Virus genome (UHGV): UHGV-0077013
Reading direction: 5' to 3' (one strand)
Origin: a virus
DNA: 23,130 nt
The notes under the pieces were generated by a model. It was not told the DNA's origin. It saw only the letters and a program-made list of their open reading frames with translations, and searched no databases. This document shows, piece by piece, positions 8,895-23,130 of the stretch (positions within the stretch are counted from its first letter, which is position 1; every line of letters begins with the position of its first letter). A program made the translations under genes and the position numbers.

Positions 8895-10077
8895 CGGAGG
8901 GTTTCGTGGTCATGTTCATCGGTGTGAGATAGACATCACCACCGGGACGCGGATTCATATCTTCCAGGTCGCGGCAGTCATTGGGAGAGTAAATTCCCCA
9001 GTTAATCCCGGTGGCGTAGGCTTCAAAACGGGACTTCATATCCCCGCGCAGTAACGCCCCGGCGTTAAATTTGGCGTAATAAACGCCCTGCTTACTTTTT
9101 CGTACCAGTCCGGTGTTGATCCGCTGTTCGATGCGGGTCAGATACGGCACCAGTGAATAGTTGATAAATCCGAGCCCCAGTTCTTCGATATTGTTGAAGG
9201 TGGCGCGATCGGTGTTCTGCACCATGTGCAACGGCACCCGGAACAGACGACAGATTTCTTCAAGCTGAAACTTGCGGGTTTCCAGGAACTGGCTGTCCTC
9301 GGCGTTCAGCGCCATCGACTTCCAGTCCAGCCCCATCTCAAGGATCATCGGGCGGTGAGCATTACCAAGCCCGGTGTGACGCTCCTCAAAATCTTTCTTC
9401 AGGCGCTCGTAAGCCTGATCTGACAGCGTCTGCTCTGTACGCAACACACCCGACGTCACCGCGCCATTGCTGAACAGTCTGGCCCCGTGCTCTTCGGTCG
9501 CTGCCGCCAGCGATATTGCCTCGCGGGCATAGGCGATGGGATTCAGTCCCACCAGACCGTCCAGCGTCAGCGTGCGCACATGCCAGATATCTTCCTGGCT
9601 CAGTACATCCGTGGAGCCGTCCGGGAATGTGACCTGGTAAACCGGTTCCCAGCTACTGTTAAGCTTCGGTACCACACAACCTGGGTCGACGGGCAGCAGT
9701 TCAGCCACTTCGCCAAATGCTTTCACTTTGTAGGCGTAAAAGTTTCCCCGCAGGCACAGACAGGTGACCACCAGCTCCCAGAACTCCTGCGGCGTCATAT
9801 AGCCATTGGGACGCGTGGAGATCAGCTTATGCAGACGTTCGCCGGTGGCTCTCTGTTTCAGGCTGCCGTTCAGGTGATACAGGTTGCAGGGCAACATCCC
9901 GACCGACTCCGCCAGCACCCTGACGCAGGAAAAAACCGCCGTCAGTCGCATGGCCCGCTGGCTGCTGATCTGCTTTCCGGTATAGGTGTCATATGACAGC
10001 CCGATAGCATCCGCCAGCTCTGCTGGCGTGGTCACCGGTGCGTCACTTTTTCGTTGAAATAATCCCGAAAAGAACAC
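8836..10077 (-). CDS. Portal protein (HK97 family)
   Basis: 413 aa, in the canonical position after the large terminase. GTG start at 10075-10077 preceded by a GGAGGT Shine-Dalgarno. Confidence 0.88.
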   Translation of the reverse strand: MFFSGLFQRKSDAPVTTPAELADAIGLSYDTYTGKQISSQRAMRLTAVFSCVRVLAESVGMLPCNLYHLNGSLKQRATGERLHKLISTRPNGYMTPQEFWELVVTCLCLRGNFYAYKVKAFGEVAELLPVDPGCVVPKLNSSWEPVYQVTFPDGSTDVLSQEDIWHVRTLTLDGLVGLNPIAYAREAISLAAATEEHGARLFSNGAVTSGVLRTEQTLSDQAYERLKKDFEERHTGLGNAHRPMILEMGLDWKSMALNAEDSQFLETRKFQLEEICRLFRVPLHMVQNTDRATFNNIEELGLGFINYSLVPYLTRIEQRINTGLVRKSKQGVYYAKFNAGALLRGDMKSRFEAYATGINWGIYSPNDCRDLEDMNPRPGGDVYLTPMNMTTKPSDGSKAGKQKDNANADETTS

Positions 10078-10270: not shown

Positions 10271-12004
10271 TTAAAGCGAGCGGATCCCGTAGGACTCAAT
10301 GTGATCAGACAGCGTGTCTTCTTTCTCGTACAGCATGGCTCTGCCAACCGCCATAATCAGCGCAACTGCACCATCAATTTTGTTTTCCGCCTGCTCTTTG
10401 ACGGGCTTCACCACATCATCGTTACCCGGAATGGTTTTGCCGACCACATTGCCGATACACCAGGTCATGATGGGATTGCCGTCATGATGAAAGCGCTCCG
10501 ATTCAATCGCCGCTTCCAGTTCTTTCATCGGATCGGACATGTTGGTGTAGTTCTGAATGATGGTGATGGGGTTCAGGTCTTCATCAGCAAGGTCATGCGA
10601 CAACCCGGTCGCCCCGAAGGGGTCGATGGGTGACTCACTGACCGGGCTGATTTTGTTCGCCGCTTTGGCCTCCTCGAGGATGTAGCGATAATCCACCTCT
10701 GCACCATCGGTAACGGTCAGAACGCCCATTTCCACCCATTTCTGAAAGCGTTCGGCTGTCCGGCGATCTTCATTTTTCTCGACGCTGTACACCGTGTCAT
10801 ACGGTACCCAGAAGCGCGGAGCCACACTGTAGTAATGCGTTTTACCGTCAATCTCGCGGGTATAAAGTCGCGCCATGCTGTTCATATCCAGCTTACGCGC
10901 CAGGTCAAAGGCCAGAATGCACGGCTGCCCCTCGAACTGCTCAAGGGTCAGTGATTTATCCTCGCAGCTCTGCCAGCTCACCAGGTTGAAATACGCCGAA
11001 CGCGCCGACACCCAGATATTGAGGTGTTTTGTTTTAAAGACGTTTGCCAGACGGGCGTTATTTTTCGCACGCTGCTGCTGACTTAACAAAAATTCGCGAT
11101 AAACCGACACGCCAATATTTGGATTGGCTTTTTCCAGCACCTGCGGGTCGGTCCAGTCGTCACCTTCATCAACGGTATAGATGATCCCGAACAGTTCATC
11201 GTTAGGCACCGAGCCGTTGAGCATCTCGATAACTTCCCGCCGCTTGTCGTAGCACGGCCCCTCAATGTTGTACCCGGCAGTAGTAATGGCCCACATCAGT
11301 GGCTGACGTCGCGCCCCCATCCCGGTAAGCATCGTGGTGTAAAGCGCATCGGTGGCGTGCTCGTGATATTCATCCACCACCGCACAGTGGGGTGATGATC
11401 CATCACCGGGGTTACCGATCAGCGGTTCAAACCGCGCGCCATCCTCCGGACGGTTCATGTTTGAGGCGTTAACCTCAATCCCGAACGCTTCCGTCAGCAT
11501 GGGTGTGCGTTTACACATCAGTCGCGCCGGGCGAAAGACTTCCCACGCCTGTTTCTCTGTCGTGGCACCGGAATACACTTCCGCGCCAAACTCGTTATCA
11601 CAGGCAAAACAATACAGGGCAACACCGGCAGAGATTGCTGATTTGCCGTTCTTACGGGGGATTTCGGTATACACCTCCCGGAAGCGGCGCAACCGGGTGC
11701 CTTTATTGACCCAGCCAAACGCACAGCAGATCACAAATAGCTGCCACGGCTCCAGCGTGATGGGCATCCGTTTAAATGCCCACTCACCCTTGGTGTGCGG
11801 CAACAGCTGAATAAATTTGGCGGCCCGTTCAGCCAGATCCTTGTCGAAGCGGTAACGAAACGACTTACTTTTTTCCGCCATCAGGTCATCAAGATGGCGC
11901 TGGCAGGCCTGAATCACAAACTGGCAGGCCACAATCTTTCCGCGCACGACATCCCGGGCATACTGATTGGCAGCATTTACGTTGGGGTAAGATTTCCGGC
12001 TCAT
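10271..12004 (-). CDS. terL: Terminase large subunit
   Basis: 577 aa with Walker A-like IPRKNGKS and a C-terminal nuclease-like region. Follows the small terminase gene. Confidence 0.92.
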
Positions 12005-12503: not shown

Positions 12504-12713
12504 ATGCGGCACTCCTGGTTAAATTTCATTTTTCGCGGGTATAAAAAAACGATGGGGCGGGCAGTCCCGGATAGTCAGGGCTGTAGAGATTTGACTACCC
12601 CCTCCCCACTGGATTCAGGTTACTGCTATTCCGTTAATCGCTGCTTACGGGGATAGCTGCGTTGTGATTTTGACCATTCAGGTCGCCGCTATTTCCTCAC
12701 CGATTGGGTGCTA

Positions 12714-12742
12714 CGCGTGCGCGTACTTGTCCCGAAATACCA
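12714..12742 (-). promoter_or_regulatory. Conserved ~27-nt motif in the late-operon leader, also present in the early region at 19061-19089
   Basis: Plus-strand CGCGTGCGCGTACTTGTCCCGAAATACCA here versus GCGCGTGCGTACTTGTCCCGAAAACACCA at 19061-19089. Degenerate copies of the GTGCGCGTACT core occur at 18850 and 18966. Confidence 0.35.
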
Positions 12743-12753
12743 GAAACCGCCAG

Positions 12754-12775
12754 CCAGAGGATGATTTCCCTCTGG
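12754..12775 (-). terminator. Hairpin 3' of the PerC-like gene (weak terminator / attenuator candidate)
   Basis: Inverted repeat CCAGAGG-ATGATTTC-CCTCTGG. Only short U-runs follow on the transcript. Confidence 0.3.
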
Positions 12776-12779
12776 TGGT

Positions 12780-13061
12780 CTACCTTTGCCTCTTGCCGCC
12801 ATTTAACCGGAAGGCGTTACCGTTCGGTTGCGCTATCCCCATGCGGTGTTGCGTTTCGGTAACAGCTTTATGCAGGTCGCCAAAGTCCTCAACCTTCACG
12901 GGCGGGCGCTTCACGTTCTCCAGACACGTTTCACGGCGGCGCTTTATCCATTCCCGATCATCGTCCTCGGTGCATAACAGCATGACTTCCATCCATCGCG
13001 CTGCGGCGCGTCGGTACAGCCCTTTTGCTTCCAGATCCTCGGCTTTACTGTCGTTTACCAT
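12780..13061 (-). CDS. PerC-family-like small transcriptional regulator
   Basis: 93 aa; AEDLEAKGLYRRAAARWMEVM...DREWIKRRRETC resembles the PerC/Pch-type activator pattern as recalled. GGGGAG Shine-Dalgarno; sits directly upstream of the packaging operon. Confidence 0.5.
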   Translation of the reverse strand: MVNDSKAEDLEAKGLYRRAAARWMEVMLLCTEDDDREWIKRRRETCLENVKRPPVKVEDFGDLHKAVTETQHRMGIAQPNGNAFRLNGGKRQR

Positions 13062-13063
13062 GT

Positions 13064-13534
13064 TTATCTCCCCCAGAATGGCGTTTCATCGTCGAATGGT
13101 GGGCGTTGGTCAAAATCATCAGGGGTATTATATAACTCCCATCCCGGCGCGGATTGTGTTGTGTGGCCCCTGCTGGCTCCGCTTGCTTTGACTGATTCGG
13201 CCCGCTTCCCGCCGGGGCGTACCGTTCTGGCGCTGATCACGCTGTCGGCTACTACCTGATAACCTTGCTGTGTACCGCCATCCTTGCCCGTCCACTGATT
13301 GATCTGCATCGCTCCGGCAACACTGACTAAATCGCCTTTAACGTGTCCTGCCAGTGCGTCGGCCTGTTTGCCGAATGCCACCACGCCCAGCCAGAAAGTA
13401 ACCTCTCCGCCCTCTGCTGCATGGCAGGGCAGTGCCACCGCTAACCGGCCCATTGCCATGCTTGTACCGTTTGCTGTGGTACGGGTCTGGGGATCTGCCA
13501 CCAGCCGCCCGTATGCTGAAATTTGTGCTGTCAT
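13064..13534 (-). CDS. ssb: Single-stranded DNA-binding protein
   Basis: 156 aa with an OB-fold-like N-terminal half, a Gly-rich linker and an acidic C-terminal tail (DDFDQRPPFDDETPF) reminiscent of the SSB DDDIPF tip. Confidence 0.7.
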   Translation of the reverse strand: MTAQISAYGRLVADPQTRTTANGTSMAMGRLAVALPCHAAEGGEVTFWLGVVAFGKQADALAGHVKGDLVSVAGAMQINQWTGKDGGTQQGYQVVADSVISARTVRPGGKRAESVKASGASRGHTTQSAPGWELYNTPDDFDQRPPFDDETPFWGR

Positions 13535-13833
13535 AGATATTTCCTCATGTAGTCACTACCTCCGGGGATAATTTTCATTTCTTCCCTTAAAGGCCACTGC
13601 TCCGCCATTGCTGCGGTCGAGTGATTCCCGTCATCACGTCCGGCCTGTGCTGCCGTCCAGTGTGTTGCATATTCTGTAAATCCAATTTCTGCTGGCTGCC
13701 TCATCCAGTGGGCGATCATCCTCAAGGTCATTTGCAGGCTTTGGGTGTCGCCCTGTAATGCGCGTTTGTCAGTAAACCCCTTCAATGCTTCACGCTCCTG
13801 ATAGGTCATTTTCTGGCTGGTTTCTGTATTCAT
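13531..13833 (-). CDS. Hypothetical protein
   Basis: 100-aa ORF with AAGGTGG Shine-Dalgarno and an ATGA overlap with ssb. Confidence 0.5.
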   Translation of the reverse strand: MNTETSQKMTYQEREALKGFTDKRALQGDTQSLQMTLRMIAHWMRQPAEIGFTEYATHWTAAQAGRDDGNHSTAAMAEQWPLREEMKIIPGGSDYMRKYL

Positions 13834-13887
13834 TGCCCACCTTCGTTATAAGCTACCCCCCCCATAGAATCTTTTTGGGGGTGTAAT

Positions 13888-14136
13888 ATCCCTACCAATC
13901 CCTACTAACTGTCTCAGGCCACGAATGGCAAGGCTTTCAGACTGGTAGGCATTCAATTTTGTTGCCCTACATAACCCTACTTATCCCTACTAAATCACTT
14001 CAACGGCATTTTACTGCCTGTTTTATTTGGTAGGGATATGTAGGGATAAGTAGGGATAAAAATATATATCCCTACCTAGTTTAAAGCCTTGCTACGTCTG
14101 GCCTCGTCTCGTTTTTAGTAGGGCAGTAGGGATAAG
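13888..14136. repeat. Iteron array (about 11 copies of a GTAGGGATA-type unit) flanking an AT-rich spacer: putative replication origin / crr-like site
   Basis: CCCTAC cores at 13890, 13900, 13965, 13975, 13985 and 14070. GTAGGG cores at 14030, 14040, 14050, 14118 and 14126, plus a partial at 13944. Several are in 10-bp phased tandems. Opposed triplets flank a 39-bp AT-rich spacer (13991-14029). Lies immediately 3' of the primase/helicase gene. Confidence 0.7.
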
Positions 14137-14152
14137 TGCCGCCGTAAAAGTT

Positions 14153-16594
14153 TCAATCATCACTCTGCCCGCTCTCCACACCGTAAGCGCGTGGCATGAA
14201 CTCCTCAGCCTTCTCGTTATAGCCAACGTTGGTTTGCGCTCTGCCGTTAATGCTTCTCGTCAGGTAGCTGGCTCGGTACTCTTTTGCTGCTGATTTTATG
14301 GCGCGTGAAAACTTATTGACGGAAAGCGGTTTACCCAAACCGTGATACTCCATAAACGCCAGATAAAGATGATAAAGATACGTCCTCGGCTCTGGCTGGC
14401 CTGCCCATGTACCTCCGCCCATCATCATGCCTTTGGGTTCGTTCATGAAAAAAAGCGCCGCACACATATCGACAACCGGATCCGTGCCGCGTTTAACCTC
14501 TAGCGCCTCCTGCGAATCGCGCTGCTCTAGTAATAGTGCTTTTGCTTTGTTCTGGTCGGCAAAGGTGGTTAGCAGGTGGCGGATAATCACCGGGATTTCT
14601 CGCCTGATTTTTGCTGTTAAATCCGGGTCTTTGTCTGCGTCTGATACCGGGTTATTAAACGGGAATATCACGCGGCGGCGGGCAATGCCCCCGTTTCGCT
14701 CCGTGAATGTCATCGGCTCGTTATTGGTTGCCATAACAACGGCATTTATCACGGTTGTGAACTGCTTTTCATATTTCCCATCAATCTCTACCGGATCGCC
14801 GCCCGTAATGGCTTTAATCCCCGCACCCTCTCCAACATAGCGGGTCTGGTCAGGCATAATAATCAGGCTTTTTCCTACGAACTGCGCCCGTCCCCGTGCG
14901 GTGTCCAGCGTCATCATGCTACCGCTGGCGGTGTTGTGTTCACCTGCCAGCGTGGTTGCTATACTGCTGAATACGGATTTCCCACTGCCGCCCTCGCCAG
15001 TTATCTCAATGAATAGCTGCCAGTCGTGACGCTTCGCCAGCACCATAAACAAGGCTGCTTTGATACGCTCGGCCTTATGATGGTCGCCAGCCGTTGCATG
15101 ATTCAGCCAACGGGTAAAATTGGGGGCGCTGGTGGTAATATTTTCCCCCGGCGCTGGCGGGGTGTAGGTGATCCCATTGTGGTTCATCAGCCAGTTACCC
15201 GGCGAATGGGCGGAAAACGTCTGCGTGGCGAGGTCATAAACGCCGTTATCAAAACCAATCAGATCCCCGCTCCGCTCACCAATTACCGGTATTTGCAGCT
15301 TCATGGTTGCGACAACCGATTTAATCCCCTTTTCGGTGTAGTGGGCTTCGTGCTCGTCGAAAATTGCCACCATAACCCTTTCTAATTCACTGTCTGGTAG
15401 CTTCACCCATACGCCAGATTCGTAGCAGTAAACAGTGCCACTATCAGGGTTAACCGCCAACATATCCCATCGAGATGAAAGCAACCGCGCTTTCTGGCTG
15501 GCTGCCATTTGTGCAATATCTCCGACTTCGGCTTTACGGCGGGATTTACCGCCCGCAATGGCCTGTAGTTGTGGTTTCACGGCTTCCCCCTGAATCTGGT
15601 ACATCGAATCGTTAAACGCAGCCGTAGCGACTTCCAGCCCGTTTTGCTGGCGGTAGTCGTCCCAGTCGGCTTTGTAGTCTGTCGGCGGCAGCGCCACCCA
15701 GCCAGCCACGGATAATGCTGCTTTCTCTGCGGCATCTTTGCCCGTGTTCGCCTGTTCGTCCTGCTGGTGGTCGTTATCTGCGGCAATGATAATTTGCGAC
15801 TGCGGGTGTTTCCGGCGCATTACTCTGGCAACGTGGATCAGGTTCCCGGCGTCAATTGCCGACACTGTAAGCGCGTCCGGGCGCATCAGGTGAACGGACA
15901 GGGCCGTCGCCAGCCCCTCGGCAATTAATACGCTCTGCGGCTGTTCCGGTGCGTTAACGGCGTGATATGCCCCGCGCTTTGCTGAACCTGTCAGGAGTCG
16001 CTTCTCTCCCTGCGGTGTAATGGTTTGCGCTGCTGCCACTGCGCCGGATTCGTCCACCAGCTCCAGCAATAACGAACCATCCGGCATTACCGGATATTTA
16101 AACCCGGTCAGCCCTTTTGATTGCAGGTAATCAGATTCGCCCTGTGTGGCACTCTGGCGCATTCCGGCATACAGACGGGCAAACGTAGCCCTTCGCTGCT
16201 CTGCGTCCTCTGCTGCCTGTTTCTGGCGCTCCTGCTCACGCTGCTGGCGGTCAGCTTCCAGTTGCTCCCTTCTATGGCTCGCTGCCACCGGATCGGTTTC
16301 CGCTGCCCGGTAATCAATACCCAGCACATCAGCGGCAAGCCTCGCCGCTTCTGTGGTGGCGCAGTTGTTCACCTTCTTAATCAGGTCTAAACCGTCACCA
16401 GCGCCACACTGATTGCAGATAAAGCTACCGCGCCCGTTGTCGTCGAATCTGAAACGGTCTTTTCCACCACATGCAGGGCATGGAGAATGGCGGCGCGATG
16501 AATCAGGCACGTCGATAGACAATCCAGCCAGCACATAAGGCCAGCGCCCGGCGGCGGCACTGGTCACTTCGCGGATAAGGTCGATATTACGCAT
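14153..16594 (-). CDS. P4 alpha-like primase/helicase (zinc-binding primase domain plus P-loop NTPase)
   Basis: N-terminal zinc ribbon CPACGGKDRFRFDDNGRGSFICNQCGAGDG, a TOPRIM-like IIAADNDH motif, and Walker A GEGGSGKS. Preferred start is the ATG at 16592-16594, coupled (ATGCGTAA) to the upstream ORF; the track ORF extends to 16651. Confidence 0.9.
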   Translation of the reverse strand: MRNIDLIREVTSAAAGRWPYVLAGLSIDVPDSSRRHSPCPACGGKDRFRFDDNGRGSFICNQCGAGDGLDLIKKVNNCATTEAARLAADVLGIDYRAAETDPVAASHRREQLEADRQQREQERQKQAAEDAEQRRATFARLYAGMRQSATQGESDYLQSKGLTGFKYPVMPDGSLLLELVDESGAVAAAQTITPQGEKRLLTGSAKRGAYHAVNAPEQPQSVLIAEGLATALSVHLMRPDALTVSAIDAGNLIHVARVMRRKHPQSQIIIAADNDHQQDEQANTGKDAAEKAALSVAGWVALPPTDYKADWDDYRQQNGLEVATAAFNDSMYQIQGEAVKPQLQAIAGGKSRRKAEVGDIAQMAASQKARLLSSRWDMLAVNPDSGTVYCYESGVWVKLPDSELERVMVAIFDEHEAHYTEKGIKSVVATMKLQIPVIGERSGDLIGFDNGVYDLATQTFSAHSPGNWLMNHNGITYTPPAPGENITTSAPNFTRWLNHATAGDHHKAERIKAALFMVLAKRHDWQLFIEITGEGGSGKSVFSSIATTLAGEHNTASGSMMTLDTARGRAQFVGKSLIIMPDQTRYVGEGAGIKAITGGDPVEIDGKYEKQFTTVINAVVMATNNEPMTFTERNGGIARRRVIFPFNNPVSDADKDPDLTAKIRREIPVIIRHLLTTFADQNKAKALLLEQRDSQEALEVKRGTDPVVDMCAALFFMNEPKGMMMGGGTWAGQPEPRTYLYHLYLAFMEYHGLGKPLSVNKFSRAIKSAAKEYRASYLTRSINGRAQTNVGYNEKAEEFMPRAYGVESGQSDD

Positions 16595-16928
16595 GGTTGC
16601 CTCCTGCCACGGTCGCGCCCATGTCTTTAACCATGCTTTGCCATATCTCACGCCCGACGTCAGTCAATCCGTCATTAGTGACGCAACGCTCAAGAAGCTC
16701 GACCCCCACGGTTTCCCACTGCGGGTAGGACACTTTCATGGCTGCCAGTGTGTAGCTATCGATCAGGCTGCGAACGCCTTTTACTCCATTGACGATTTCC
16801 ACACGGACGGCGAGGCCGTCCGCATCAACCATGAAATAGTCACCGCCGCTGGTGGAGGTAATGTGGTTATACAGTGCCGACGCATACTTATTCGCCAGCG
16901 CATTCAGTCTGAAATTTTTAGTAATCAT
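16587..16928 (-). CDS. Hypothetical early protein
   Basis: 113-aa ORF whose stop overlaps the primase start. Confidence 0.5.
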   Translation of the reverse strand: MITKNFRLNALANKYASALYNHITSTSGGDYFMVDADGLAVRVEIVNGVKGVRSLIDSYTLAAMKVSYPQWETVGVELLERCVTNDGLTDVGREIWQSMVKDMGATVAGGNHA

Positions 16929-16937
16929 GTCGCCCCC

Positions 16938-17564
16938 TCAGTGCGGCAGCGGCATTTCAGGCCAGCCGTTTTCATCCAGTTCAGCTATAAAGCTGTTGTG
17001 AAGTTCAGCAAGCGTTTCACGCCCGAACGGGGTCAACTCGCCGCGCTCCGTGTCGATCATGGCCTGATAAAAAACAATGGCGTTCGCTGTTCCCTGCTCA
17101 ATGCCGTAGCGCTCAACCATTGCGCCCTCCATGTTGTTAGCCATCGCCAGACGTTCCGCGAACGGGTAAACCACAATCCCCGCCGTGCCATTGGAGTAAA
17201 TCGCCACCTGCGATGAAGTGCCGTCAGACTCAGTTACCGTGGTTGTGCCGTTTTCGCGCTTCATCTCAGAAATGAACGTCGCAGCAATCAGCCAGCGCCA
17301 CATAGTGACGTTATGCTGCGCGGTGAAGTCGAACCAGCCACGCGCCCCGCCATCAGCAACGGCAAAATGAATGGCGTATCCGATATCTGGCTTATCGTCG
17401 TACTCTCCGGCGTCAAGGCCGTTCACGGCGCTCTCGTAGCTGATAAGAGCAACCTGCTCATATCCCCCGGCATCATTGCGGGTCATGATATTGACGCCGT
17501 GCGGTGTGGCTTCGGCGTGTAATAAGTCGGCATTTCCCGATTTAATGGTCGGTGCGTTGCTCAT
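16938..17564 (-). CDS. Hypothetical early protein
   Basis: 208-aa ORF with an ATGA overlap to the upstream gene. Confidence 0.55.
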   Translation of the reverse strand: MSNAPTIKSGNADLLHAEATPHGVNIMTRNDAGGYEQVALISYESAVNGLDAGEYDDKPDIGYAIHFAVADGGARGWFDFTAQHNVTMWRWLIAATFISEMKRENGTTTVTESDGTSSQVAIYSNGTAGIVVYPFAERLAMANNMEGAMVERYGIEQGTANAIVFYQAMIDTERGELTPFGRETLAELHNSFIAELDENGWPEMPLPH

Positions 17565-17824
17565 GCGCTGCCCTCCGCATCAATTCTGGCTATATCGACA
17601 ATCGTCAGGACTTTACTCAGCCAGCAATACGCGATGGCTGCTTGCTCAACTTCGAGGAGTGGTAATAAATCGGTCATAACGTGAGCCAGCCCATTGCGGG
17701 CGCGGGTCATGCGTTCTGCTGTTCGGTCCGCCAGCGTAAAATCATCCGGGTATGCTTCTTTACGAGATAGCATCGATTCGGCTTCCAGATCTGCCGGGTG
17801 GCGATAGATGGTATTTATGTTCAT
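17561..17824 (-). CDS. Hypothetical early protein
   Basis: 87-aa ORF with ATGA overlaps on both sides. Confidence 0.5.
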   Translation of the reverse strand: MNINTIYRHPADLEAESMLSRKEAYPDDFTLADRTAERMTRARNGLAHVMTDLLPLLEVEQAAIAYCWLSKVLTIVDIARIDAEGSA

Positions 17825-18135
17825 TTGCCCGCCCTCCCTTTGGCTTCTTTTTCACTGATTGAGCGCAAGAATGCGGCGTTTGCAGCGCTATCGTTCAGCG
17901 CCAGCGCAACTTCTCCGATATGTCCCAGCATTGCGCCTAATCTGTACATATCAGCCTTAGCGCTTTCCTCCGGGTAGCCATCGCTACCAGCCGCCCAGAA
18001 CATGAGGCTACCAATGGCACTTACGCCCAGCATTAAATCATCCACGGCATCACTGGCGCAGCTCTCAATTCCTTTCAGATCATCAGGCGTACAACCATCA
18101 AATTTGCAGGACACTAAATCGTTATACATGCTCAT
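17821..18135 (-). CDS. Hypothetical early protein
   Basis: 104-aa ORF with ATGA overlaps on both sides. Confidence 0.5.
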   Translation of the reverse strand: MSMYNDLVSCKFDGCTPDDLKGIESCASDAVDDLMLGVSAIGSLMFWAAGSDGYPEESAKADMYRLGAMLGHIGEVALALNDSAANAAFLRSISEKEAKGRAGK

Positions 18136-18311
18136 GCCGCCACCTCACGAACGCGGGTAATCTGGATGTGGGAAAGGCGTTCATTTCTGGCCTGATTTAG
18201 CGCCTCAGCTTTGGCGCTGATCGCGCTGCGGGCGTCAACGATATAAACGAACTCGACTAATTCGCCGCTCCGGGCGGTGGCGCATCCTGCAACACGGAAG
18301 TAATTAAGCAT
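18132..18311 (-). CDS. Hypothetical small early protein
   Basis: Preferred ATG at 18309-18311 (MLNYFRVAG...), overlapping the upstream stop as CATGCTTAA. The track ORF starts at an upstream TTG (18341). Confidence 0.45.
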   Translation of the reverse strand: MLNYFRVAGCATARSGELVEFVYIVDARSAISAKAEALNQARNERLSHIQITRVREVAA

Positions 18312-18495
18312 GTGCGCCCCCTGTGCGAATACGTCCGGCAAAAAAGCAAACGTGATCCCGCGCCAGAATGCGGCGGGCTTCCTGCTCAGTCTCTGCGGCG
18401 ATATGGTGAATTTTGACGGTAATTGTCGGCATATCGCGGCGAACTGCGGCGATAATCCAGATAAATTGCGGTTTTTGGGTAGGGGTAGTAGCCAT
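18304..18495 (-). CDS. Hypothetical small early protein
   Basis: Strong CAGGAGG Shine-Dalgarno 8 nt before the ATG at 18493-18495 (MATTPTQKPQFIWIIAAVRR...). The longer 119-aa track ORF is probably an over-extension. Confidence 0.5.
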   Translation of the reverse strand: MATTPTQKPQFIWIIAAVRRDMPTITVKIHHIAAETEQEARRILARDHVCFFAGRIRTGGAHA

Positions 18496-18653
18496 TATGG
18501 CAGCCTCCTGTAACTGGGATTTATTCCCACCACCGGAAACGCCAATTTCACTGGTGGTGAGCTGAACAGGGTTGGCGTAACCGGCGTTACAGGAAACCGG
18601 CGCGGATCGCTCCGCCCCCATCCAGCCCACCATTACTTTTTGAGCAATATGGG

Positions 18654-19253
18654 CTATAGCCATATCGCTGGGAAAGAGGTGTGCAGATGCGAGGACACAA
18701 AAAAGACGCTCGGCGCGTCATGTGTCGCCTGTAACATTATCAGGACGCCAATCCCGGCACCAGATTTTGCTGGTGCGCTATAACCATAAACCGGGTTGGC
18801 GATAGTCGGCAAGCCCTTTTTTATGGACTCCAGAAACTCACCTTCGCGCGTGCGCGTACTGTTGCATAAATTCCCTGCATCTAGTGGTGATGTCAGAAAA
18901 ATCTTCCCGCCTCGTGTAGTGATGATGGGAAAATCTTCCTCGCGTAGTGACCCCCAATAAATCTTCGTGCGCGTACTGGTCTCGAAACTCTCCTCGTCAC
19001 CACGACGAGAAAATGAGGAGCTGGCATTAGCTGGCACTGTTATGCCAGCTTCGCATTCATGCGCGTGCGTACTTGTCCCGAAAACACCAAGATTTGTAAA
19101 GATCTGGCGGTGGCAAATGTCAGGTTTTGACAGGTTCCAAACGTCGCTATTTGTCGCAATCTGGCGGCGGGCTGCTTTGCTCCAGACGTTAACATTTGCA
19201 TACATCAGGCCAGCCAGGGGAAAGGCTTTATTCTGGATGGCGGCATTAAGCAT
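18654..19253 (-). CDS. Questionable ORF spanning the repeat-dense region
   Basis: 199 codons; the ATG at 19251-19253 overlaps the antirepressor stop (CATGCTTAA). The translation is low-complexity and the DNA is full of direct repeats and hairpins, so it may be non-coding or encode only a short N-terminal peptide. Confidence 0.2.
   Translation of the reverse strand: MLNAAIQNKAFPLAGLMYANVNVWSKAARRQIATNSDVWNLSKPDICHRQIFTNLGVFGTSTHAHECEAGITVPANASSSFSRRGDEESFETSTRTKIYWGSLREEDFPIITTRGGKIFLTSPLDAGNLCNSTRTREGEFLESIKKGLPTIANPVYGYSAPAKSGAGIGVLIMLQATHDAPSVFFVSSHLHTSFPAIWL
18846..19171. repeat. Repeat-dense region between the antirepressor gene and the small early genes
   Basis: Three degenerate tandem units (AAATCTTC...CGYGTAGTGA) at 18897, 18930 and 18958. 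GTGCGCGTACT-type cores at 18850, 18966 and 19063. A 23-bp direct repeat ATTTGTxxxxATCTGGCGGxGG at 19092-19114 and 19149-19171. Hairpins at 19028-19049 and 18993-19009. Confidence 0.5.
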
Positions 19254-20079
19254 GATTAGCCCCCAGATGTTTAGCTAACCAGCGCTGAGAGAGGCGGATT
19301 AGCTCGGCTTTACGCAGGTCATATCCCATACCCATATCAATCAGCGTAATGTTGGTACTCTCCAGGTAGGCGAGGTGTTCCAGTTGCCCTGCGTTCATGC
19401 TGTCCCGTGGTTCGCCAGTAATGTCATTTGCCTGCGCCCACTGCTTCGCCGTCATGCCACCCAGCACGATACGGGCGATCATGTTGCTCTCGTTGCTGTA
19501 GTGGCGAGCCTGCGTCTGTTTACCCTGTTCTGCGCGGGCGCTTTCCAGCGCTACGCACATCGGTTTAAACAGGTTGGCGGCACTGATACGGGCTTTTAGC
19601 TGGCGACGATAGCGGGCGGCGATTTCAGGCACGCTACGCTGTAATTCTTCCTCGCACTGGATGAAATAACGGCGGATAGCGCGGCCCTGTTCAGTGCGTT
19701 CGATCATTGCCAGTTCTTTCGCCATTCCGACACTTAACAGATAGTCTTTGCCGGGTCTGCCAGAGTGCTTAATCTTGCTGTAAGCCGCGCCATTCGGGCT
19801 TTTCCCCAGATTTGGGGAAATTGTTTTATGGACTGAGTAATCGTGCCCAATGGTGAAGTCATATTCAGAGATGCGATCAGTGATCCATGTAGAGAAGTCT
19901 TTTCCCACGCCCAACGCTTTGTGTAACGCTTTTGCGCTAACAATATTGGTTTCACGCCCACCGATATGACCAGGAATAACCGGGACAATTGTGGCAAATT
20001 CATTACCGTTAATTGTTCCCTGATAGGCGTTCAGATGAGGGGCGGCCTCAGAAATTAATCTGCTTTTTTCGATGTTCAT
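19246..20079 (-). CDS. Antirepressor (AntA-like N-terminal and KilA-C/ANT-like C-terminal domains)
   Basis: 277 aa. ...KDFSTWITDRISEYDFTIGHDY... resembles the AntA domain and ...LSVGMAKELAMIERTEQGRAIRRYFIQCEE... the KilA-C/ANT domain. Confidence 0.7.
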   Translation of the reverse strand: MNIEKSRLISEAAPHLNAYQGTINGNEFATIVPVIPGHIGGRETNIVSAKALHKALGVGKDFSTWITDRISEYDFTIGHDYSVHKTISPNLGKSPNGAAYSKIKHSGRPGKDYLLSVGMAKELAMIERTEQGRAIRRYFIQCEEELQRSVPEIAARYRRQLKARISAANLFKPMCVALESARAEQGKQTQARHYSNESNMIARIVLGGMTAKQWAQANDITGEPRDSMNAGQLEHLAYLESTNITLIDMGMGYDLRKAELIRLSQRWLAKHLGANHA

Positions 20080-20091
20080 TTTCAGTCTCCG

Positions 20092-20526
20092 TTAGGCGGC
20101 GGTGAGATTGTCCGGGTATAGGTTGAGAATGTCGGCAATTTCAGGCTGAGAAAGTCCCTGATAGCCGCCAGCGTCGGCGTTATGGTTCACAAGCCGAATA
20201 ACTTTTAGAACGTCACCGCGCCCGGTAAAGCGATAGCGTAAATGTGACCCTATCCCGTCGGGGTTCTTTTCGTCTATACGCTCAAGCTGAATATCAAGCC
20301 TGCGCTCTAACTCGCTGGCGTAGTTCCTTCCAGATGAAAGGCGGCAATATTGCAGAATGTCATTTTCTGTCCATCCCTCTATACCAGTACGCAGCATATA
20401 GACGCGGGCGCGGTGTTTCTTTGGGGTACGCTTAGGTACTTGTACCGGGCTGGTGGTCGGCGTAATATCAGACGTGCGAATATCTGAGTTAGCCGCCTGC
20501 TGTACGGGGCGGTTTTTCTTTTTCAT
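20092..20526 (-). CDS. Hypothetical protein with basic N-terminus
   Basis: 144-aa ORF whose start overlaps the alpA-like stop (TAATG). Confidence 0.5.
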   Translation of the reverse strand: MKKKNRPVQQAANSDIRTSDITPTTSPVQVPKRTPKKHRARVYMLRTGIEGWTENDILQYCRLSSGRNYASELERRLDIQLERIDEKNPDGIGSHLRYRFTGRGDVLKVIRLVNHNADAGGYQGLSQPEIADILNLYPDNLTAA

Positions 20527-20744
20527 TACGCCACCTTTCCCCGGCGCTCCGCCAGCCAGTTGTGAATCTCAACCGCATCAAACGCAGTCACGTTATCTGT
20601 TAGCTTCACTGGGCGTGGAAGAGTGCCATTTTTAACCCATCTATCAATAGTAGGCAGTGAAACACCTAGCAATTCCGGCATGCGAAAGCGACGGATGTAT
20701 CCAGTTGTTGGGATAGCTGATGATGCTGGCTTGTGTGCTGTCAT
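20526..20744 (-). CDS. alpA: AlpA-family transcriptional regulator / excisionase-like protein
   Basis: 72 aa with a helix-turn-helix pattern ...MPELLGVSLPTIDRWVKNGTLPRPVKL...AFDAVEIHNWLAERR, typical of the AlpA family. Confidence 0.75.
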   Translation of the reverse strand: MTAHKPASSAIPTTGYIRRFRMPELLGVSLPTIDRWVKNGTLPRPVKLTDNVTAFDAVEIHNWLAERRGKVA

Positions 20745-20825
20745 ATCTCTAGTAACCTCTCTGATAGCTCATGAAGTTACTTAAAGTTTAGTGGTTGCCC
20801 ATACAGTATTTCTATTAAGACTAGA

Positions 20826-20877
20826 ATCTATTGAAAGAAATTATAAATCTATTGAAAAAATACTGATCCACTGAAAG
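20826..20877. promoter_or_regulatory. Three direct repeats (ATCYAYTGAAA) about 80-130 bp upstream of alpA: candidate operator/promoter element
   Basis: atctattgaaag at 20826-20837, atctattgaaaa at 20847-20858 and atccactgaaag at 20866-20877, spaced about 20 bp apart in a very AT-rich intergenic region. Confidence 0.35.
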
Positions 20878-21214
20878 ATTGCAAATGCAGGTGGGATAAT
20901 TATTTTCTTTATTTTCAATTAGTTACCAGTTTAAAAAATCATTGTTTTATCAAAGAGTTATATCTTTCATCGTCATTCATCATGTTTTTACATTTCCTTT
21001 TATCTTTTATTATTCAATTGGTTGAGTCGGTTTATAATGGCTCATGATGGCTTAAAATGCTAATGATAGCTGGCGTATCTTTTAGAGATGGGGTGATTAC
21101 AGATGAACTAAGCCGAACAGATATAGCAATGGCTAGGCATAGAATTATCTATGCTGGTGGAGATGGGTAAACAGGTAATGCCCCGCCATTGCTTTGGAGG
21201 GGCGTGAAAAGTGA

Positions 21215-21865
21215 TTAGTCGAGATCGTGGACAGCTAATAAAGCCCGTGAGATTTTTTCTAGGAATGTGGCTTTTGCTATTCCTTTATGGGATATCCCTT
21301 CATCCTTGATTAAGGTTTCTATGTCACGGTATATAGCTGTGCGATTAGGTTTCCCATTTTGGGTGTAGGAAGATGAGCCTGATTTTTTTATCAGCAGATG
21401 TACTATCAACCCCATCATTTTCATTGTCCCGTTTTCCTCATCCTGCTTTCTATGCTGCCCACGTCCGCTGCGGTTGGTTTCTTTGATGTAGTTTACTAAC
21501 TGGAGTCCTCCAAGGTTTCGGGCTTTTTCTTCCCAGCCCTTGGTGCCACGCAAATCATCAATCGCTTCTGATATTTTCTGAACAATTATTTCTGGTGTAT
21601 TTGTGTCAATAAATGGGTAAGAAGCTAAGAAAATATCAAGGGCATGGCAAGGCTCGTCTTTACTAGTTTTTTCACCTCTGTACACCTTGATAGCTCTGGC
21701 AAGATGAGTTCTGACAAAATCGACATATTCGAAATTTTCCTCAGGCACATCGCTAATGCGCATAGATGGGTTTAGGCCAGCCAAGGCCACAGCCATTTCA
21801 TGAGGGGTAATCGATACAGATGAACAAAGCCGTTCGATTGGCGATTTTCTCAAGATGTTGTTCAC
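21215..21865 (-). CDS. Hypothetical low-GC cargo protein translationally coupled to the integrase
   Basis: 216-aa ORF with a GTG start at 21863-21865 overlapping the int stop (ATGTGA) and a GGAGG Shine-Dalgarno 5 nt upstream. A spot count gives about 38% GC. No recognisable domain. Confidence 0.55.
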   Translation of the reverse strand: MNNILRKSPIERLCSSVSITPHEMAVALAGLNPSMRISDVPEENFEYVDFVRTHLARAIKVYRGEKTSKDEPCHALDIFLASYPFIDTNTPEIIVQKISEAIDDLRGTKGWEEKARNLGGLQLVNYIKETNRSGRGQHRKQDEENGTMKMMGLIVHLLIKKSGSSSYTQNGKPNRTAIYRDIETLIKDEGISHKGIAKATFLEKISRALLAVHDLD

Positions 21866-23130
21866 ATTTGCCTCCGGGCTTTATCGAATGGCGTTACGTT
21901 GTAGTCTTTTCCGCTTTCCAGTGCCACCAGCAAATCACACCACTGCGCCAGCGCCGCTTTACGCTCATCAAAATACTGGTGACGGTTATAGATACCTTCC
22001 ACGCCTTTAATTTTGTGGTTGAGGCATCTTTCAGCCACTACGGGATCAACGCCCAGCGCGGCTAAATGGGTGCGGGCTGTGCGCCGGAAGTCGTGAATCG
22101 TGAAATTAGGCACATCCGGCATTTCAGCGCGAACCTTAGCCAGTGCTACGGGTAAAGTGCTTTCCTGAATATGTGGGATCATTCTGTTTTGCATCTTTCT
22201 GGCTGGCAGTACCCATGCGCTGTTGCATGAGAACGTTTTAAGCTCTCTCAGCCATTCGACGGCTGGCGGTGCTAATGGGATGTCTATAGCGTCGCCGTTT
22301 TTACTGCGTTCTTCTGGTAAGTGCCAGATGCCTTTGTCCAGGTCGAACTCCTCCCAGCGGGCGGCGCATAACTCCATTTTGCGGACGCATAACGCTAACA
22401 GTAATTTGAACGTGATTTCGTTCTGGCGACTGAATCCCTTAGCTGTGCGCATAGCCTGAAACAGTCGGATTAGTTCGCCACGTGTTAACCAGCGGTCGCG
22501 GGAAACTTCTTTCCCTCCGGCGTCTGCCACCTCAAAGGCTGAACACGGGTTAATCTCCAGTGCGTGCCGCTTAATGCCGTAGTCAAATATGCGGCGTGTC
22601 CAGCGCAGAACGTCCGTTGCTATGGTCGGCGCTCCACGGTCAACAATACTTTTCAGCATGTCGTCGATATGGCGCGGCTTCACGTCCTCCACCTTCATGC
22701 TGCCAATGCATGGGTTTATATCTTTGTCGATACGGCGGCGGAGTATATCGGGGTGCTTCCAGCGCGGGAGGATCTGACGCTCAAAGTATTCAGCGGCAAG
22801 CTCTGAAACGCGCATAGCGTTCTTCTCTGCTTCCATCTTCGCCAGTGCTTCGGTTTTGCGCTTCTGCTTCTCTCCTGCAACGTCATAGCCCAACGCAACG
22901 CGAGCCGATAGCTCTTTGGCTGTCTCTCTGGCCTTTGATAGTGATAGCTCGGCATATGAGCCGATAACCATTGCTCGCTGCTTACCTGCGAATTTATAGC
23001 GAAAGCGCCAGAAAGGGACTGTGTAGTTTTTGGGGTAGCAAATATAAAGGCCGTTGCCATCGGCCCTTCCTTCAAATCTATCTCCGGCCTTTATCCATGC
23101 GCGGATCTGCATGTCTGTAATCTTTGGCAT
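21862..23130 (-). CDS. int: Tyrosine integrase, P4-like
   Basis: 422 aa with an arm-binding-type N-terminus (MPKITDMQIRAWIKAGDRF...) and a C-terminal catalytic region (HDFRRTARTHLAALG...GIYNRHQY). The ATG is the last triplet of the window. Confidence 0.92.
   Translation of the reverse strand: MPKITDMQIRAWIKAGDRFEGRADGNGLYICYPKNYTVPFWRFRYKFAGKQRAMVIGSYAELSLSKARETAKELSARVALGYDVAGEKQKRKTEALAKMEAEKNAMRVSELAAEYFERQILPRWKHPDILRRRIDKDINPCIGSMKVEDVKPRHIDDMLKSIVDRGAPTIATDVLRWTRRIFDYGIKRHALEINPCSAFEVADAGGKEVSRDRWLTRGELIRLFQAMRTAKGFSRQNEITFKLLLALCVRKMELCAARWEEFDLDKGIWHLPEERSKNGDAIDIPLAPPAVEWLRELKTFSCNSAWVLPARKMQNRMIPHIQESTLPVALAKVRAEMPDVPNFTIHDFRRTARTHLAALGVDPVVAERCLNHKIKGVEGIYNRHQYFDERKAALAQWCDLLVALESGKDYNVTPFDKARRQM

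What the first reader, a model, noticed from the sequence alone, without database searches (positions are those of the whole stretch)
12714..12742. A ~27-nt motif shared between the late-operon leader and the early-region repeats
Copies at 12714-12742 (between the PerC-like gene and terS) and 19061-19089 (inside the repeat region after the antirepressor gene) are near-identical, with degenerate core copies at 18850 and 18966. A shared element in an early leader and the packaging/head leader suggests one factor coordinating early and late expression. That factor could be a protein (the PerC-like or AlpA-like product) or an RNA-based mechanism of the P4 immunity type; which one is open.
Basis: seen in the sequence. 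Interest (0 to 1): 0.6.

Follow-up and report, generated by a model that had tools for sequence, protein, structure and literature searches.

The report
Small-terminase-gene-like repeats in a phage satellite
The repeated ~25-base motif is real, but it sits in a phage-parasitising island (a PICI satellite) rather than in a phage's own early and late leaders. It copies a stretch of the small-terminase gene of the podovirus known to mobilise this satellite family, so it is more likely a hijacked DNA-packaging signal than a gene-expression switch.

Summary
There are four strong same-strand copies of TTTCGNGAC(A/C)AGTACGCGCACG at 12716-12737, 18849-18870, 18966-18987 and 19062-19083 on the minus strand, plus three degenerate units; none is expected by chance.

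Window 12519-23130 is about 100% identical to an EcCIMP1-like Gram-negative PICI satellite. It meets the terS-to-tail genes of an SfV/e14-like prophage inside a 49-nt shared cos block. The "late leader" is therefore the satellite's perC-to-cos spacer.

The early copies lie upstream of the conserved promoter for the isrK/C4 immunity RNAs. The motif does not pair with C4. It differs from the ori iterons and from the repeats at the alpA promoter.

The same DNA encodes (E)DFRDKYAKA in Sf6-type small-terminase genes. A matrix built from satellite copies gives one outlier in the 39-kb genome of Kapi1, the proven helper of EcCIMP1, and it falls in terS. EcCIMP1 has three copies, none at its immunity promoter.

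Best reading (about 0.4): terS-derived recognition repeats for helper TerS, acting as a pac-site mimic. Rivals are operator sites for a satellite regulator, or recombination relics. The call needs experiments.

The parts
12716..12737 (-). Motif copy D (TTTCGGGACAAGTACGCGCACG), in the spacer between the perC stop and the cos-like block. In frame it reads FRDKYAHA followed by a stop.
   Evidence: 39.8 bits. It aligns to Kapi1 terS nt 146-194 over 49 nt at 71% identity.
19062..19083 (-). Motif copy A (TTTCGGGACAAGTACGCACGCG), about 165 nt downstream of the antA stop. It reads FRDKYARA followed by a stop.
   Evidence: 30.1 bits. A 31-nt stretch is 81% identical to Kapi1 terS.
18966..18987 (-). Motif copy B (TTTCGAGACCAGTACGCGCACG). 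It reads EFRDQYAH.
   Evidence: 39.9 bits. It matches Salmonella phage MS2 LVA terS at 21 of 22 positions.
18849..18870 (-). Motif copy C (TTTATGCAACAGTACGCGCACG). Its core lies at -84 to -73 relative to the isrK transcript start.
   Evidence: 35.6 bits.
18881..18961 (-). Three degenerate units of the same repeat, spaced 28-32 nt apart: GAAGATTT..TCACTACGCG, ..TCACTACACG and ..TCACCACTAG.
   Evidence: (D9). Related loci carry homologous units.
18824..18840 (-). Promoter-proximal half unit (TGAGTTTCTGGAGTCCA). It is followed by an A-tract at 18815-18822.
   Evidence: Conserved in all 18 loci aligned. A GC-rich version occurs in metagenomic relatives.
18776..18812 (-). Predicted sigma-70 promoter of the immunity RNAs. 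The -35 is TTGCCG (18807-18812), the spacer is 18 nt, the -10 is TATGGT (18783-18788) and the start is G at 18776.
   Evidence: The alignment of 18 loci, the 5' end of the Rfam isrK model, and the same layout at P4 PLE. The promoter itself is inferred, not mapped.
18699..18789 (-). isrK / c4-a1b1 RNA element, equivalent to P4 seqA. The a1 box UUGGCG is at 18746-18751, the b1 box GUUACAGG at 18728-18735, and the terminator at 18705-18719.
   Evidence: isrK 75 bits, c4-a1b1 43.8 bits; terminator.
18550..18637 (-). C4 antisense (P1 C4 / P4 CI-type) immunity RNA. The a2 box (18540-18545) and b2 box (18507-18514) lie downstream, over the ribosome-binding site of the Icd-like ORF.
   Evidence: 76.9 bits; boxes read from the sequence.
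12519..12612 (-). cos-like block shared with the HNH-to-terS intergenic region of SfV/e14-like prophages. Positions 12519-12567 are identical in satellite and prophages, and the satellite-to-prophage switch lies there.
   Evidence: The cos function is inferred from its position (PMC10111431).
12780..13061 (-). perC-family gene, the last gene of the satellite's replication zone.
   Evidence: (PF06069, 1.5e-29).
19246..20079 (-). AntA/Bro-network gene directly upstream of the early repeats. Its C-terminus, ..SQRWLAKHLGANHA, shares RWLAKH with the TerS DNA-binding helix.
   Evidence: The six-residue match has E = 0.055 in a tiny search space and is weak.
20092..20526 (-). orf144, a candidate winged-helix DNA-binding protein. 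It is conserved in every motif-bearing satellite examined whose locus reaches that region, and it is the candidate binder under the regulatory rival explanation.
   Evidence: conservation; pLDDT 73, helix-helix-helix-strand-strand-helix; best PDB matches TFIIE, MarR and RTP; E >= 0.046, not significant.

Best explanation
The motif is a DNA-level recognition repeat derived from the small-terminase (terS) gene of Sf6-type P22-like helper phages. It works as a packaging-signal (pac-site) mimic.

Proposed mechanism:
1. The satellite (an EcCIMP1-like Gram-negative PICI) has no terminase of its own.
2. It carries several same-orientation copies of the roughly 20-50 bp stretch that, in the helper's terS gene, encodes ..RWLAKHEDFRDKYAKA.. 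at the end of the TerS DNA-binding domain.
3. In Sf6 the pac site is reported to lie within that part of the gene.
4. When such a helper enters its late phase, its ring-shaped TerS would bind the repeats and recruit TerL.
5. Headful packaging of satellite concatemers would then start.

The neighbouring cos-like block would separately serve HNH/P27-terminase (SfV/HK97-type) helpers.

What is shown: the repeats, their conservation and single orientation, their non-coding state, the sequence relationship to terS, and the single match in the helper genome.

What is inferred: TerS binding and packaging initiation.
For: 1. The element is a PICI satellite.
- Window 12519-23130 is about 100% identical to an 11-kb island in E. 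coli GDSC2239PM. That island runs int-alpA-antA-ash/Icd-primase-SSB-PerC and then cargo, with no terminase or capsid genes.
- EcCIMP1, of the same family, is transduced by phage Kapi1, and its packaging route is unknown (PMC11773190).

2. The motif matches the helper's terS gene.
- Kapi1 TerS is Sf6-type.
- A matrix built only from satellite copies gives one outlier in the 39,436-bp Kapi1 genome: 27.3 bits at 18868-18899, inside terS and in the terS orientation. The next best hit scores 6.1. About 6e-4 hits of that score are expected by chance.
- P4 and the SfV-type late regions score at most 9.9.

3. The similarity extends beyond the core.
- Copy D aligns to terS nt 146-194 (49 nt, 71%).
- Copy A aligns over 31 nt (81%).
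- Copy B matches the terS of Salmonella phage MS2 LVA at 21 of 22 positions.
- The three best matches in the window to the Kapi1 33-mer are the motif copies (22-23 of 33). No shuffle out of 60 reached 22.

4. The satellite copies are non-coding.
- The FRDKYA frame stops right after each copy.
- In an IMG/VR pattern scan, the same DNA lies in about 20 distinct long ORFs reading W(L)..PEFRDQYARARE.QAD, the N-terminal helix-turn-helix region of small terminases.

5. The anatomy fits a terminase recognition site.
- The site is asymmetric, multi-copy, always in one orientation and variably spaced (26-117 nt).
- This resembles lambda cosB R sites or the SPP1 pac boxes (from general knowledge).

6. 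The copies in EcCIMP1 sit at the packaging end.
- EcCIMP1 has three strong copies (34-40 bits), all at its perC/late end.
- It has none upstream of its intact immunity promoter.

7. Literature.
- Sf6 TerS recognises a specific pac site (PMC7672466).
- The P22 pac site lies inside terS (PMC9611059).
- From my memory of the Leavitt et al. 2013 abstract (Virology 440:117), the Sf6 pac site lies in the part of terS that encodes the DNA-binding domain. I could not open that paper.
Against:
- The motif encodes Sf6 residues 56-63, at the edge of the crystallographic DNA-binding domain.
- In this window's lineage, and in GC-rich metagenomic relatives, the array sits directly upstream of the conserved isrK/C4 promoter and grades into it. 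That looks regulatory.
- The satellite already has a cos mimic, so a second packaging signal is not required.
- Transduction of EcCIMP1 by Kapi1 is very inefficient (PMC11773190).
- FRDxYA is a widely conserved terminase peptide, so shared ancestry with a terS fragment could explain the similarity without any present function.
- The resemblance of the degenerate units to the P22 pac site (16 of 22) is not significant: 6 of 60 shuffles do as well.
Confidence: 0.4

Rival explanations
1. The repeats are operator or activator sites for a satellite-encoded DNA-binding protein. This is the first reader's idea with different candidates: the winged-helix-like orf144, the AntA C-terminal region, less likely AlpA or PerC. 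The protein would set the activity of the isrK/C4 immunity promoter, and at copy D it would control transcription running from perC toward cos and the cargo genes.
For: - In the window lineage the array ends 73 nt upstream of the predicted start of the immunity RNAs.
- Its last half unit merges with the A-tract and the -35 element.
- That arrangement is conserved in 18 enterobacterial loci and in GC-rich metagenomic relatives.
- orf144 is present at 70-87% identity in the motif-bearing satellites whose locus reaches that region, and its model has a winged-helix-like topology.
- In P4, the AlpA-family protein Vis acts at both late promoters. This is a precedent recalled from the literature, not tested here.
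Against: - The distance from the nearest full copy to the promoter varies between lineages, roughly -84, -92, -125 and -150.
- EcCIMP1 keeps the promoter and the half unit but has no full copy upstream. Its copies are about 12 kb away at the perC end.
- P4 has the same promoter layout with no repeats.
- No promoter-like site follows copy D.
- The alpA promoter carries unrelated repeats.
- The fold match for orf144 is not significant.
- This model does not explain why the site equals a helper terS segment.
Confidence: 0.27
2. The copies are relics with no present function. They would be decayed pieces of a captured helper terS gene, or displaced gene ends stacked up by module swapping in the Bro zone. 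They would persist because they serve as short homology patches for recombination between satellites.
For: - Homology between relatives often begins exactly at a copy.
- Copy number differs between close relatives. L005 has a single copy fused from B and C.
- In EcCIMP1-like islands, D-type copies flank a cargo-plus-perC segment.
- Late zones of such islands hold genes captured from helpers (PMC10111431; EcCIMP1 carries P22-type ejection genes).
- Copy D is degenerate in a sister lineage.
Against: - The 12-20 nt core stays nearly invariant while the flanks diverge. This holds across islands whose PerC proteins are only 60-100% identical and in GC-rich relatives.
- All copies keep one orientation.
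- Three to six copies are maintained.
- Neutral debris would not keep the core intact.
Confidence: 0.2
3. The motif is an RNA-level element. It would be a target of the C4/CI-type immunity RNA, or a structured leader that controls termination, as in P4 immunity.
For: - C4 and isrK/a1b1 lie 60-300 nt downstream of the early copies.
- All copies are on the transcribed strand.
Against: - The a and b boxes that pair with this C4 are found elsewhere: 18746-18751, 18728-18735, 18540-18545 and 18507-18514.
- The motif contains neither box.
- C4-motif duplexes are weak, -23 to -29 kcal/mol against -36 to -45 for the top sites.
- The perC-cos spacer does not fold better than shuffles (z = -1.6).
- No Rfam family covers the motif.
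- The early copies lie upstream of the immunity promoter.
Confidence: 0.04
4. The repeats are replication iterons, a second cis-acting replication region like P4 crr, bound by the primase/helicase.
For: P4 has two separated iteron clusters, ori and crr, bound by one protein (annotation). The motif likewise occurs in two separated clusters.
Against: - The obvious origin is at 13887-14104, just downstream of the primase gene. It uses an unrelated iteron, TAGGGATA, in inverted arrays around an AT-rich core.
- In P4, ori and crr share the same iteron. Here they would not.
Confidence: 0.03

Closest known systems
pac sites of P22-like phages that lie inside the terS gene (P22 gene 3; Sf6 gene 1)
   Same: It is an asymmetric sequence located within the terminase small-subunit gene and recognised by that subunit. 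The window motif matches the corresponding stretch of Sf6-type terS in Kapi1, HF4s and MS2 LVA.
   Different: Here the sequence is outside any terminase gene, is non-coding and is repeated three to seven times in a satellite. Its identity with the mapped Sf6 pac site was not verified. The similarity to the P22 pac site itself is not significant.
cos-site mimicry by Gram-negative PICIs (EcCICFT073 with Rpp; helper-embedded PICIs)
   Same: A satellite without terminase carries a copy of its helper's packaging site near its end. This window also has such a cos-like block at 12519-12612 (PMC10111431).
   Different: The motif is a separate element upstream of that block and also lies in the early region. 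It relates to a headful (pac) helper rather than a cos helper. No Rpp-like adaptor was identified.
SaPIbov5, and staphylococcal plasmids carrying phage pac or cos homologues
   Same: These mobile elements gain transfer by carrying packaging signals, sometimes both pac and cos types (from general knowledge; PMC8494744 appears).
   Different: SaPIs that use pac packaging encode their own TerS. Here there is no TerS, and the putative signal is an array of terS-gene fragments.
Multi-site terminase recognition regions (lambda cosB R1-R3; SPP1 pacL/pacR boxes; P1 pac hexamer repeats)
   Same: They are several short repeats bound by an oligomeric TerS, with variable spacing and sometimes overlapping promoters.
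   Different: There is no sequence relationship, and binding was not tested here.
P4 late control by Vis (AlpA family) and Delta at PLL and Psid
   Same: One protein acts at two separated control regions of a satellite.
   Different: P4 has none of these repeats. The satellite's alpA promoter has different repeats. There is no late operon native to this element.
P1 C4 / P4 CI antisense immunity (Rfam C4, c4-a1b1, isrK)
   Same: The module is present and complete, right next to the early repeats.
   Different: The motif is not one of its target boxes and lies upstream of its promoter.

Membership tests
Gram-negative PICI satellite (EcCIMP1-like) | Integrase, AlpA, a Bro-zone antirepressor and a P4-type primase, in that order on one strand, in an island of about 11 kb. 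| tested here: met
   The order matches the four-zone layout described in PMC10111431 and EcCIMP1.
Gram-negative PICI satellite (EcCIMP1-like) | No terminase, capsid or tail genes of its own. | tested here: inconclusive
   The identical island in E. coli has none. In 10 of 10 places the exact PerC is followed by cargo genes, not terS. In this window, however, terS-to-tail genes follow directly, joined inside the shared cos block. This could be a recombinant or an assembly chimera.
Gram-negative PICI satellite (EcCIMP1-like) | Induction and transfer by a helper phage. | not testable with these tools
   This has been shown only for EcCIMP1 with Kapi1 (PMC11773190).
pac site of Sf6-type small terminase | The sequence corresponds to the site inside the helper terS gene, in the part encoding the DNA-binding domain. 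| tested here: inconclusive
   There is a single 27.3-bit match in Kapi1, inside terS at nt 165-196, and 49-nt homology to copy D. The mapped Sf6 pac coordinates could not be read.
pac site of Sf6-type small terminase | TerS binds it specifically. | not testable with these tools
   No computation available here addresses this.
pac site of Sf6-type small terminase | Packaging series start nearby, and the site is required for transfer. | not testable with these tools
   This needs end mapping of packaged DNA and deletion mutants.
Target box of C4/CI antisense RNA (a/b boxes; P4 seqA/seqC) | Complementarity to the C4 loop sequences. | tested here: not met
   The boxes are found elsewhere. Motif duplexes are weak.
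Replication iterons (P4 ori/crr type) | The same short repeat is present at the origin next to the primase gene. | tested here: not met
   The origin repeats are TAGGGATA.
Transcription-factor operator array | Fixed position relative to a promoter, and co-occurrence with its binding protein. | tested here: inconclusive
   The array is adjacent to the isrK promoter in many loci. The distance varies, however, and EcCIMP1 lacks the array there. orf144 co-occurs with the motif but is also simply a core gene.
Sigma-70 promoter | -35 and -10 hexamers within the motif. | tested here: not met
   No promoter-like site overlaps any copy (sequence read).

The most novel reading that the evidence does not exclude
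The satellite carries two independent packaging signals for two unrelated helper types: a cos mimic for HNH/P27-terminase myoviruses and arrays of terS-derived pac mimics for Sf6-type podoviruses. The array next to the isrK/C4 promoter would also act as a sensor. Helper TerS, a late protein, would bind there and switch the satellite's RNA-based immunity at the moment packaging becomes possible.
Probability: 0.1. Interest if true: 0.85.

Novelty: new variant of a known kind. Interest (0 to 1): 0.6.

Why it matters
How terminase-less Gram-negative PICIs such as EcCIMP1 get into P22-like capsids is an open question. The authors who described EcCIMP1 could not name a mechanism. A short, conserved, testable DNA element that equals a stretch of the helper's own terS gene gives a direct hypothesis and an easy experiment. 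It would also locate the recognition sequence of Sf6-type small terminases, whose DNA specificity has resisted in-vitro study. Finally, it would show that one satellite can be equipped for both cos and headful helpers, which bears on how widely such islands and their defence or virulence cargo can spread.

Tried and rejected
- **C4 target.** Rejected: the a and b boxes lie elsewhere and the duplexes are weak.
- **Structured RNA leader.** The perC-cos spacer folds no better than shuffles (z = -1.6), and no Rfam family covers the motif.
- **Promoter inside the motif.** None was found.
- **ori/crr iterons.** Rejected because the origin uses a different repeat.
- **AlpA boxes.** The alpA promoter has unrelated repeats.
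- **Similarity of the degenerate units to the P22 pac site.** The best match is 16 of 22, and 6 of 60 shuffles do as well. I dropped this as evidence.
- **BLAST of the array against 50,697 phage genomes.** This gave a single 26-nt hit in an unannotated phage, zth2-2. The terS link appeared only through the degenerate pattern scan and the weight matrix.
- **Covariation between motif variants and protein variants (orf144, AlpA, PerC).** The loci were too few and no clear pattern emerged.
- **orf144 fold search.** The fold is only weakly winged-helix-like and no PDB hit is significant.
- **Pfam on GC-rich metagenomic relatives.** Apart from an integrase there were no hits, so their element type stays unknown.
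- **Leavitt et al. 2013.** The paper could not be opened.
- **Helper-embedded PICI configuration.** Considered unlikely. The integrase is identical to that of an island integrated next to the chromosomal yicC gene, and the junction is a cos homology block rather than an att site.

Full report
**1. The observation**

All genes in the window are on the minus strand. The repeat finder returns one four-member direct family at 12714-12741, 18847-18874, 18964-18991 and 19060-19087. A 19-nt core allowing up to three mismatches hits three of these sites, and none is expected in 100 dinucleotide shuffles.

Read on the coding strand, the unit is TTTCGNGAC(A/C)AGTACGCGCACG. Between copies B and C lie three degenerate units, 28-32 nt apart (GAAGATTT...TCACTACGCG and similar). 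A half unit runs into the next promoter. A weight matrix built from 22 distinct units in related islands scores the four copies at 30-40 bits. The next best site in the 23-kb window scores 2.7.

**2. What the surrounding DNA is**

Pfam and PHROG searches give this gene order, read right to left in window coordinates:
- integrase
- AlpA
- orf144
- AntA antirepressor
- the repeats
- isrK/a1b1 and C4 RNAs
- an Icd-like ORF
- a P4-type primase
- an origin with TAGGGATA iterons
- SSB
- PerC
- a 267-nt spacer
- P27-type TerS, TerL, portal, protease, capsid, connectors, tail sheath, tube and tape measure

The right half (12519-23130) is about 100% identical to an 11-kb island in E. coli GDSC2239PM. 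That island ends with PerC, the same spacer and then cargo genes, with no structural genes at all. It has the organisation of Gram-negative PICI satellites (PMC10111431) and of EcCIMP1 (PMC11773190).

The last 100 nt of the spacer also occur in about 1,300 further E. coli genomes (1,620 match in all), at about 87% identity. In the two examples inspected they lie between the HNH endonuclease and terS genes of SfV/e14-like prophages. That is where the cos site of HK97-type phages lies.

An alignment shows that the window follows the satellite sequence down to a 49-nt stretch identical in satellite and prophages (12567-12519). From there it follows the prophage sequence into terS. The exact TerS protein is preceded by HNH in 8 of 8 places looked up. 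The exact PerC is followed by cargo, never by terS, in 10 of 10 places.

The 'late-operon leader' is therefore the satellite's perC-to-cos spacer. The join to head genes is either a rare recombinant at cos or an assembly chimera, and I cannot tell which.

**3. The early copies and the immunity module**

Rfam finds a complete P1/P4-type antisense immunity unit: isrK/c4-a1b1 at 18699-18789 and C4 at 18550-18637. The target boxes that match this particular C4 can be read directly:
- UUGGCG at 18746-18751 and 18540-18545
- GUUACAGG at 18728-18735 and 18507-18514, the latter over the ribosome-binding site of the Icd-like ORF

Aligning the 190 nt around the isrK start from 18 loci shows a conserved sigma-70-like promoter. 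It reads TTGCCG, 18 nt, TATGGT, with the start at the first base of the isrK model. An A-tract and the half unit lie just upstream. P4 PLE has the same layout.

Copy C sits at -84 to -73, and B and A lie further upstream. The motif is not part of it, though. It lies upstream of the promoter and contains neither box. It also pairs with C4 much less well than the top sites, which include the b2 target.

**4. Conservation**

The motif is present, always in the same orientation, in every related island whose early region I could see. This covers islands whose PerC is 60-100% identical. Copy number ranges from one to six, and spacing from 26 to about 120 nt. Some relatives look like deletions between copies (L005).

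Copy D is intact in the window's lineage and in EcCIMP1-like islands. It is degenerate in a sister lineage.

orf144, orf208, primase, SSB and PerC accompany the motif wherever the locus reaches them. The AlpA type and the Bro-zone gene vary.

**5. The unexpected link to terS**

A degenerate-pattern scan of IMG/VR returned 69 loci. About half were satellites. In many of the rest the same DNA lies inside long ORFs reading ...STVFRWL..PEFRDQYARARE.QAD..., the N-terminal helix-turn-helix region of small terminases.

In the window the corresponding frame reads FRDKYARA-stop (A), EFRDQYAH... (B) and FRDKYAHA-stop (D). The copies are therefore not part of a gene.

The Sf6 small terminase carries EDFRDKYAKA. 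Its gene reads GAGGATTTTCGCGACAAGTACGCGAAGGCA.

Kapi1, the phage shown experimentally to mobilise EcCIMP1, has this Sf6-type TerS. The satellite-derived matrix gives a single outlier in the whole Kapi1 genome, 27.3 bits against 6.1 for the runner-up. The hit lies inside terS and in the terS orientation. P4 and the SfV-type late regions have nothing above 9.9 bits.

The similarity extends beyond the core:
- Copy D aligns to terS nt 146-194, covering codons for RWLAKHEDFRDKYAKA, with a 2-nt deletion.
- Copy A aligns over 31 nt.
- Copy B matches the diverged Sf6-type terS of Salmonella phage MS2 LVA at 21 of 22 positions.

The three best matches in the window to the Kapi1 33-mer are the motif copies, and no block shuffle out of 60 reaches their score.

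EcCIMP1 itself has three strong copies. All are at its perC end, and none lies upstream of its intact isrK promoter.

**6. Interpretation**

The copies derive from an Sf6-type terS gene, and their core has been kept intact in non-coding DNA while the flanks decayed. For a satellite with no terminase, the simplest reason to keep several same-orientation copies of a helper terS segment is that the helper's TerS recognises it.

In P22 the pac site lies inside terS (PMC9611059). Sf6 TerS recognises a specific pac site (PMC7672466). From my memory of the abstract of Leavitt et al. 2013, that site lies within the part of the gene encoding the DNA-binding domain; I could not open the paper.

I therefore rank a pac-site mimic first, at about 0.4. 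Binding and packaging initiation are inferred, not shown.

The main counter-argument is that in this lineage, and in GC-rich metagenomic relatives, the array is welded to the immunity promoter. That keeps a regulatory reading alive at about 0.27, with the winged-helix-like orf144 as the most plausible binder. Three things weaken it:
- the copy-to-promoter distance varies;
- EcCIMP1 lacks the array at that promoter;
- P4 has the same promoter without repeats.

A relic or recombination-patch reading (about 0.2) explains the copy-number variation but not the conserved core. RNA-target and iteron readings are essentially excluded.

**7. Comparison with what is known**

Satellites that copy a helper's packaging site are known, for example the cos sites in EcCICFT073 and the helper-embedded PICIs. 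This window has such a block too. Elements carrying both pac- and cos-type signals are known in staphylococci.

I did not find any description of arrays of non-coding terS-gene fragments in a terminase-less Gram-negative PICI. The EcCIMP1 authors state that its packaging mechanism is unknown. I file this as a new variant of a known kind, conditional on experiments.

**8.

The observation and the gene labels are right. So is the hunch that something P4-like and RNA-based is nearby. The proposed function, coordinating early and late expression through PerC, AlpA or an immunity RNA, is not what the evidence supports.

Noticed in passing
window 18507-18789: This is a complete P1/P4-type antisense immunity unit. 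Its target boxes co-vary with this particular C4 RNA. UUGGCG (a1 at 18746-18751, a2 at 18540-18545) pairs with CGCCAA. GUUACAGG (b1 at 18728-18735, b2 at 18507-18514) pairs with CCUGUAAC, and b2 covers the ribosome-binding site of the Icd-like ORF (ATG at 18495). Relatives carry different C4 loops, which suggests different immunity specificities.
   Followed up: partly
window 12519-12567: The window switches from satellite sequence to SfV/e14-like prophage sequence inside a 49-nt block identical in both. In database look-ups the exact PerC is never followed by terS (0 of 10), and the exact TerS is always preceded by HNH (8 of 8). The window may be a cos-region recombinant or an assembly chimera.
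   Followed up: partly
window 13887-14104: This is the likely replication origin just downstream of the primase gene. It has inverted arrays of TAGGGATA-type iterons around an AT-rich centre, and an 80-nt imperfect inverted repeat.
   Followed up: no
window about 20815-20868: Direct repeats TTTCAATAGATT (twice) plus TCTTAATAGAAA lie in the AT-rich region upstream of alpA. They are candidate AlpA autoregulation boxes and are unrelated to the motif under study.
   Followed up: no
window 12611-12636 and 12674-12699: A direct repeat, GGAA(A)TAGCRGYRACCTGAAT, occurs 63 nt apart in the satellite-specific part of the spacer, just upstream of the cos-like block. It may be a satellite-specific accessory site for cos recognition.
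   Followed up: no
window 19267-19284 (antA C-terminus): AntA ends in ..SQRWLAKHLGANHA. RWLAKH is identical to the DNA-contacting helix of Sf6-type TerS (15 of 18 nt identical). It lies in the same frame as the FRDKYARA and EFRDQYA remnants downstream. This may be a trace of a TerS-like domain once fused to the Bro-zone gene, or it may be chance (E = 0.055 in a tiny search).
   Followed up: partly
window 18304-19253: The Pfam 'Ash protein family' model is split across two ORFs that overlie the isrK and C4 RNA genes. PGAP annotates these as 'ash family protein' and 'Icd-like'. The protein family may largely be a translation of RNA genes. Alternatively, as with P4 eta/kil, it may reflect read-through translation that overrides immunity.
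   Followed up: no
window 19117-19131: The palindrome TGTCAAAACCTGACA lies upstream of copy A. It is also present at the equivalent place in L001 and L007 and, slightly altered (TGACAAAACCTGACA), in the metagenomic locus L068.
   Followed up: no
L124 (E. coli MP1, EcCIMP1) 9468-9499, 11222-11253, 11510-11541: The experimentally characterised island EcCIMP1 has three strong motif copies. All are at its perC end, and two of them flank the segment holding perC and the small helix-turn-helix gene alpA_1. Its early region has only inverted fragments of the degenerate unit.
   Followed up: partly
L032, L063, L083 (IMG/VR metagenomic contigs): These GC-rich contigs, which carry an integrase but no other recognisable genes, have the same architecture. 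The units read PEFRDKYAHAREAG.. and are followed by TTTTTGGAGTCTCCAAAAAAGG. The module therefore extends well beyond enterobacteria.
   Followed up: partly
window 20092-20526: orf144 has a basic disordered N-terminus followed by a predicted helix-helix-helix-strand-strand-helix core that looks like a winged helix. It is found in hundreds of enterobacterial genomes and is always annotated as hypothetical.
   Followed up: partly
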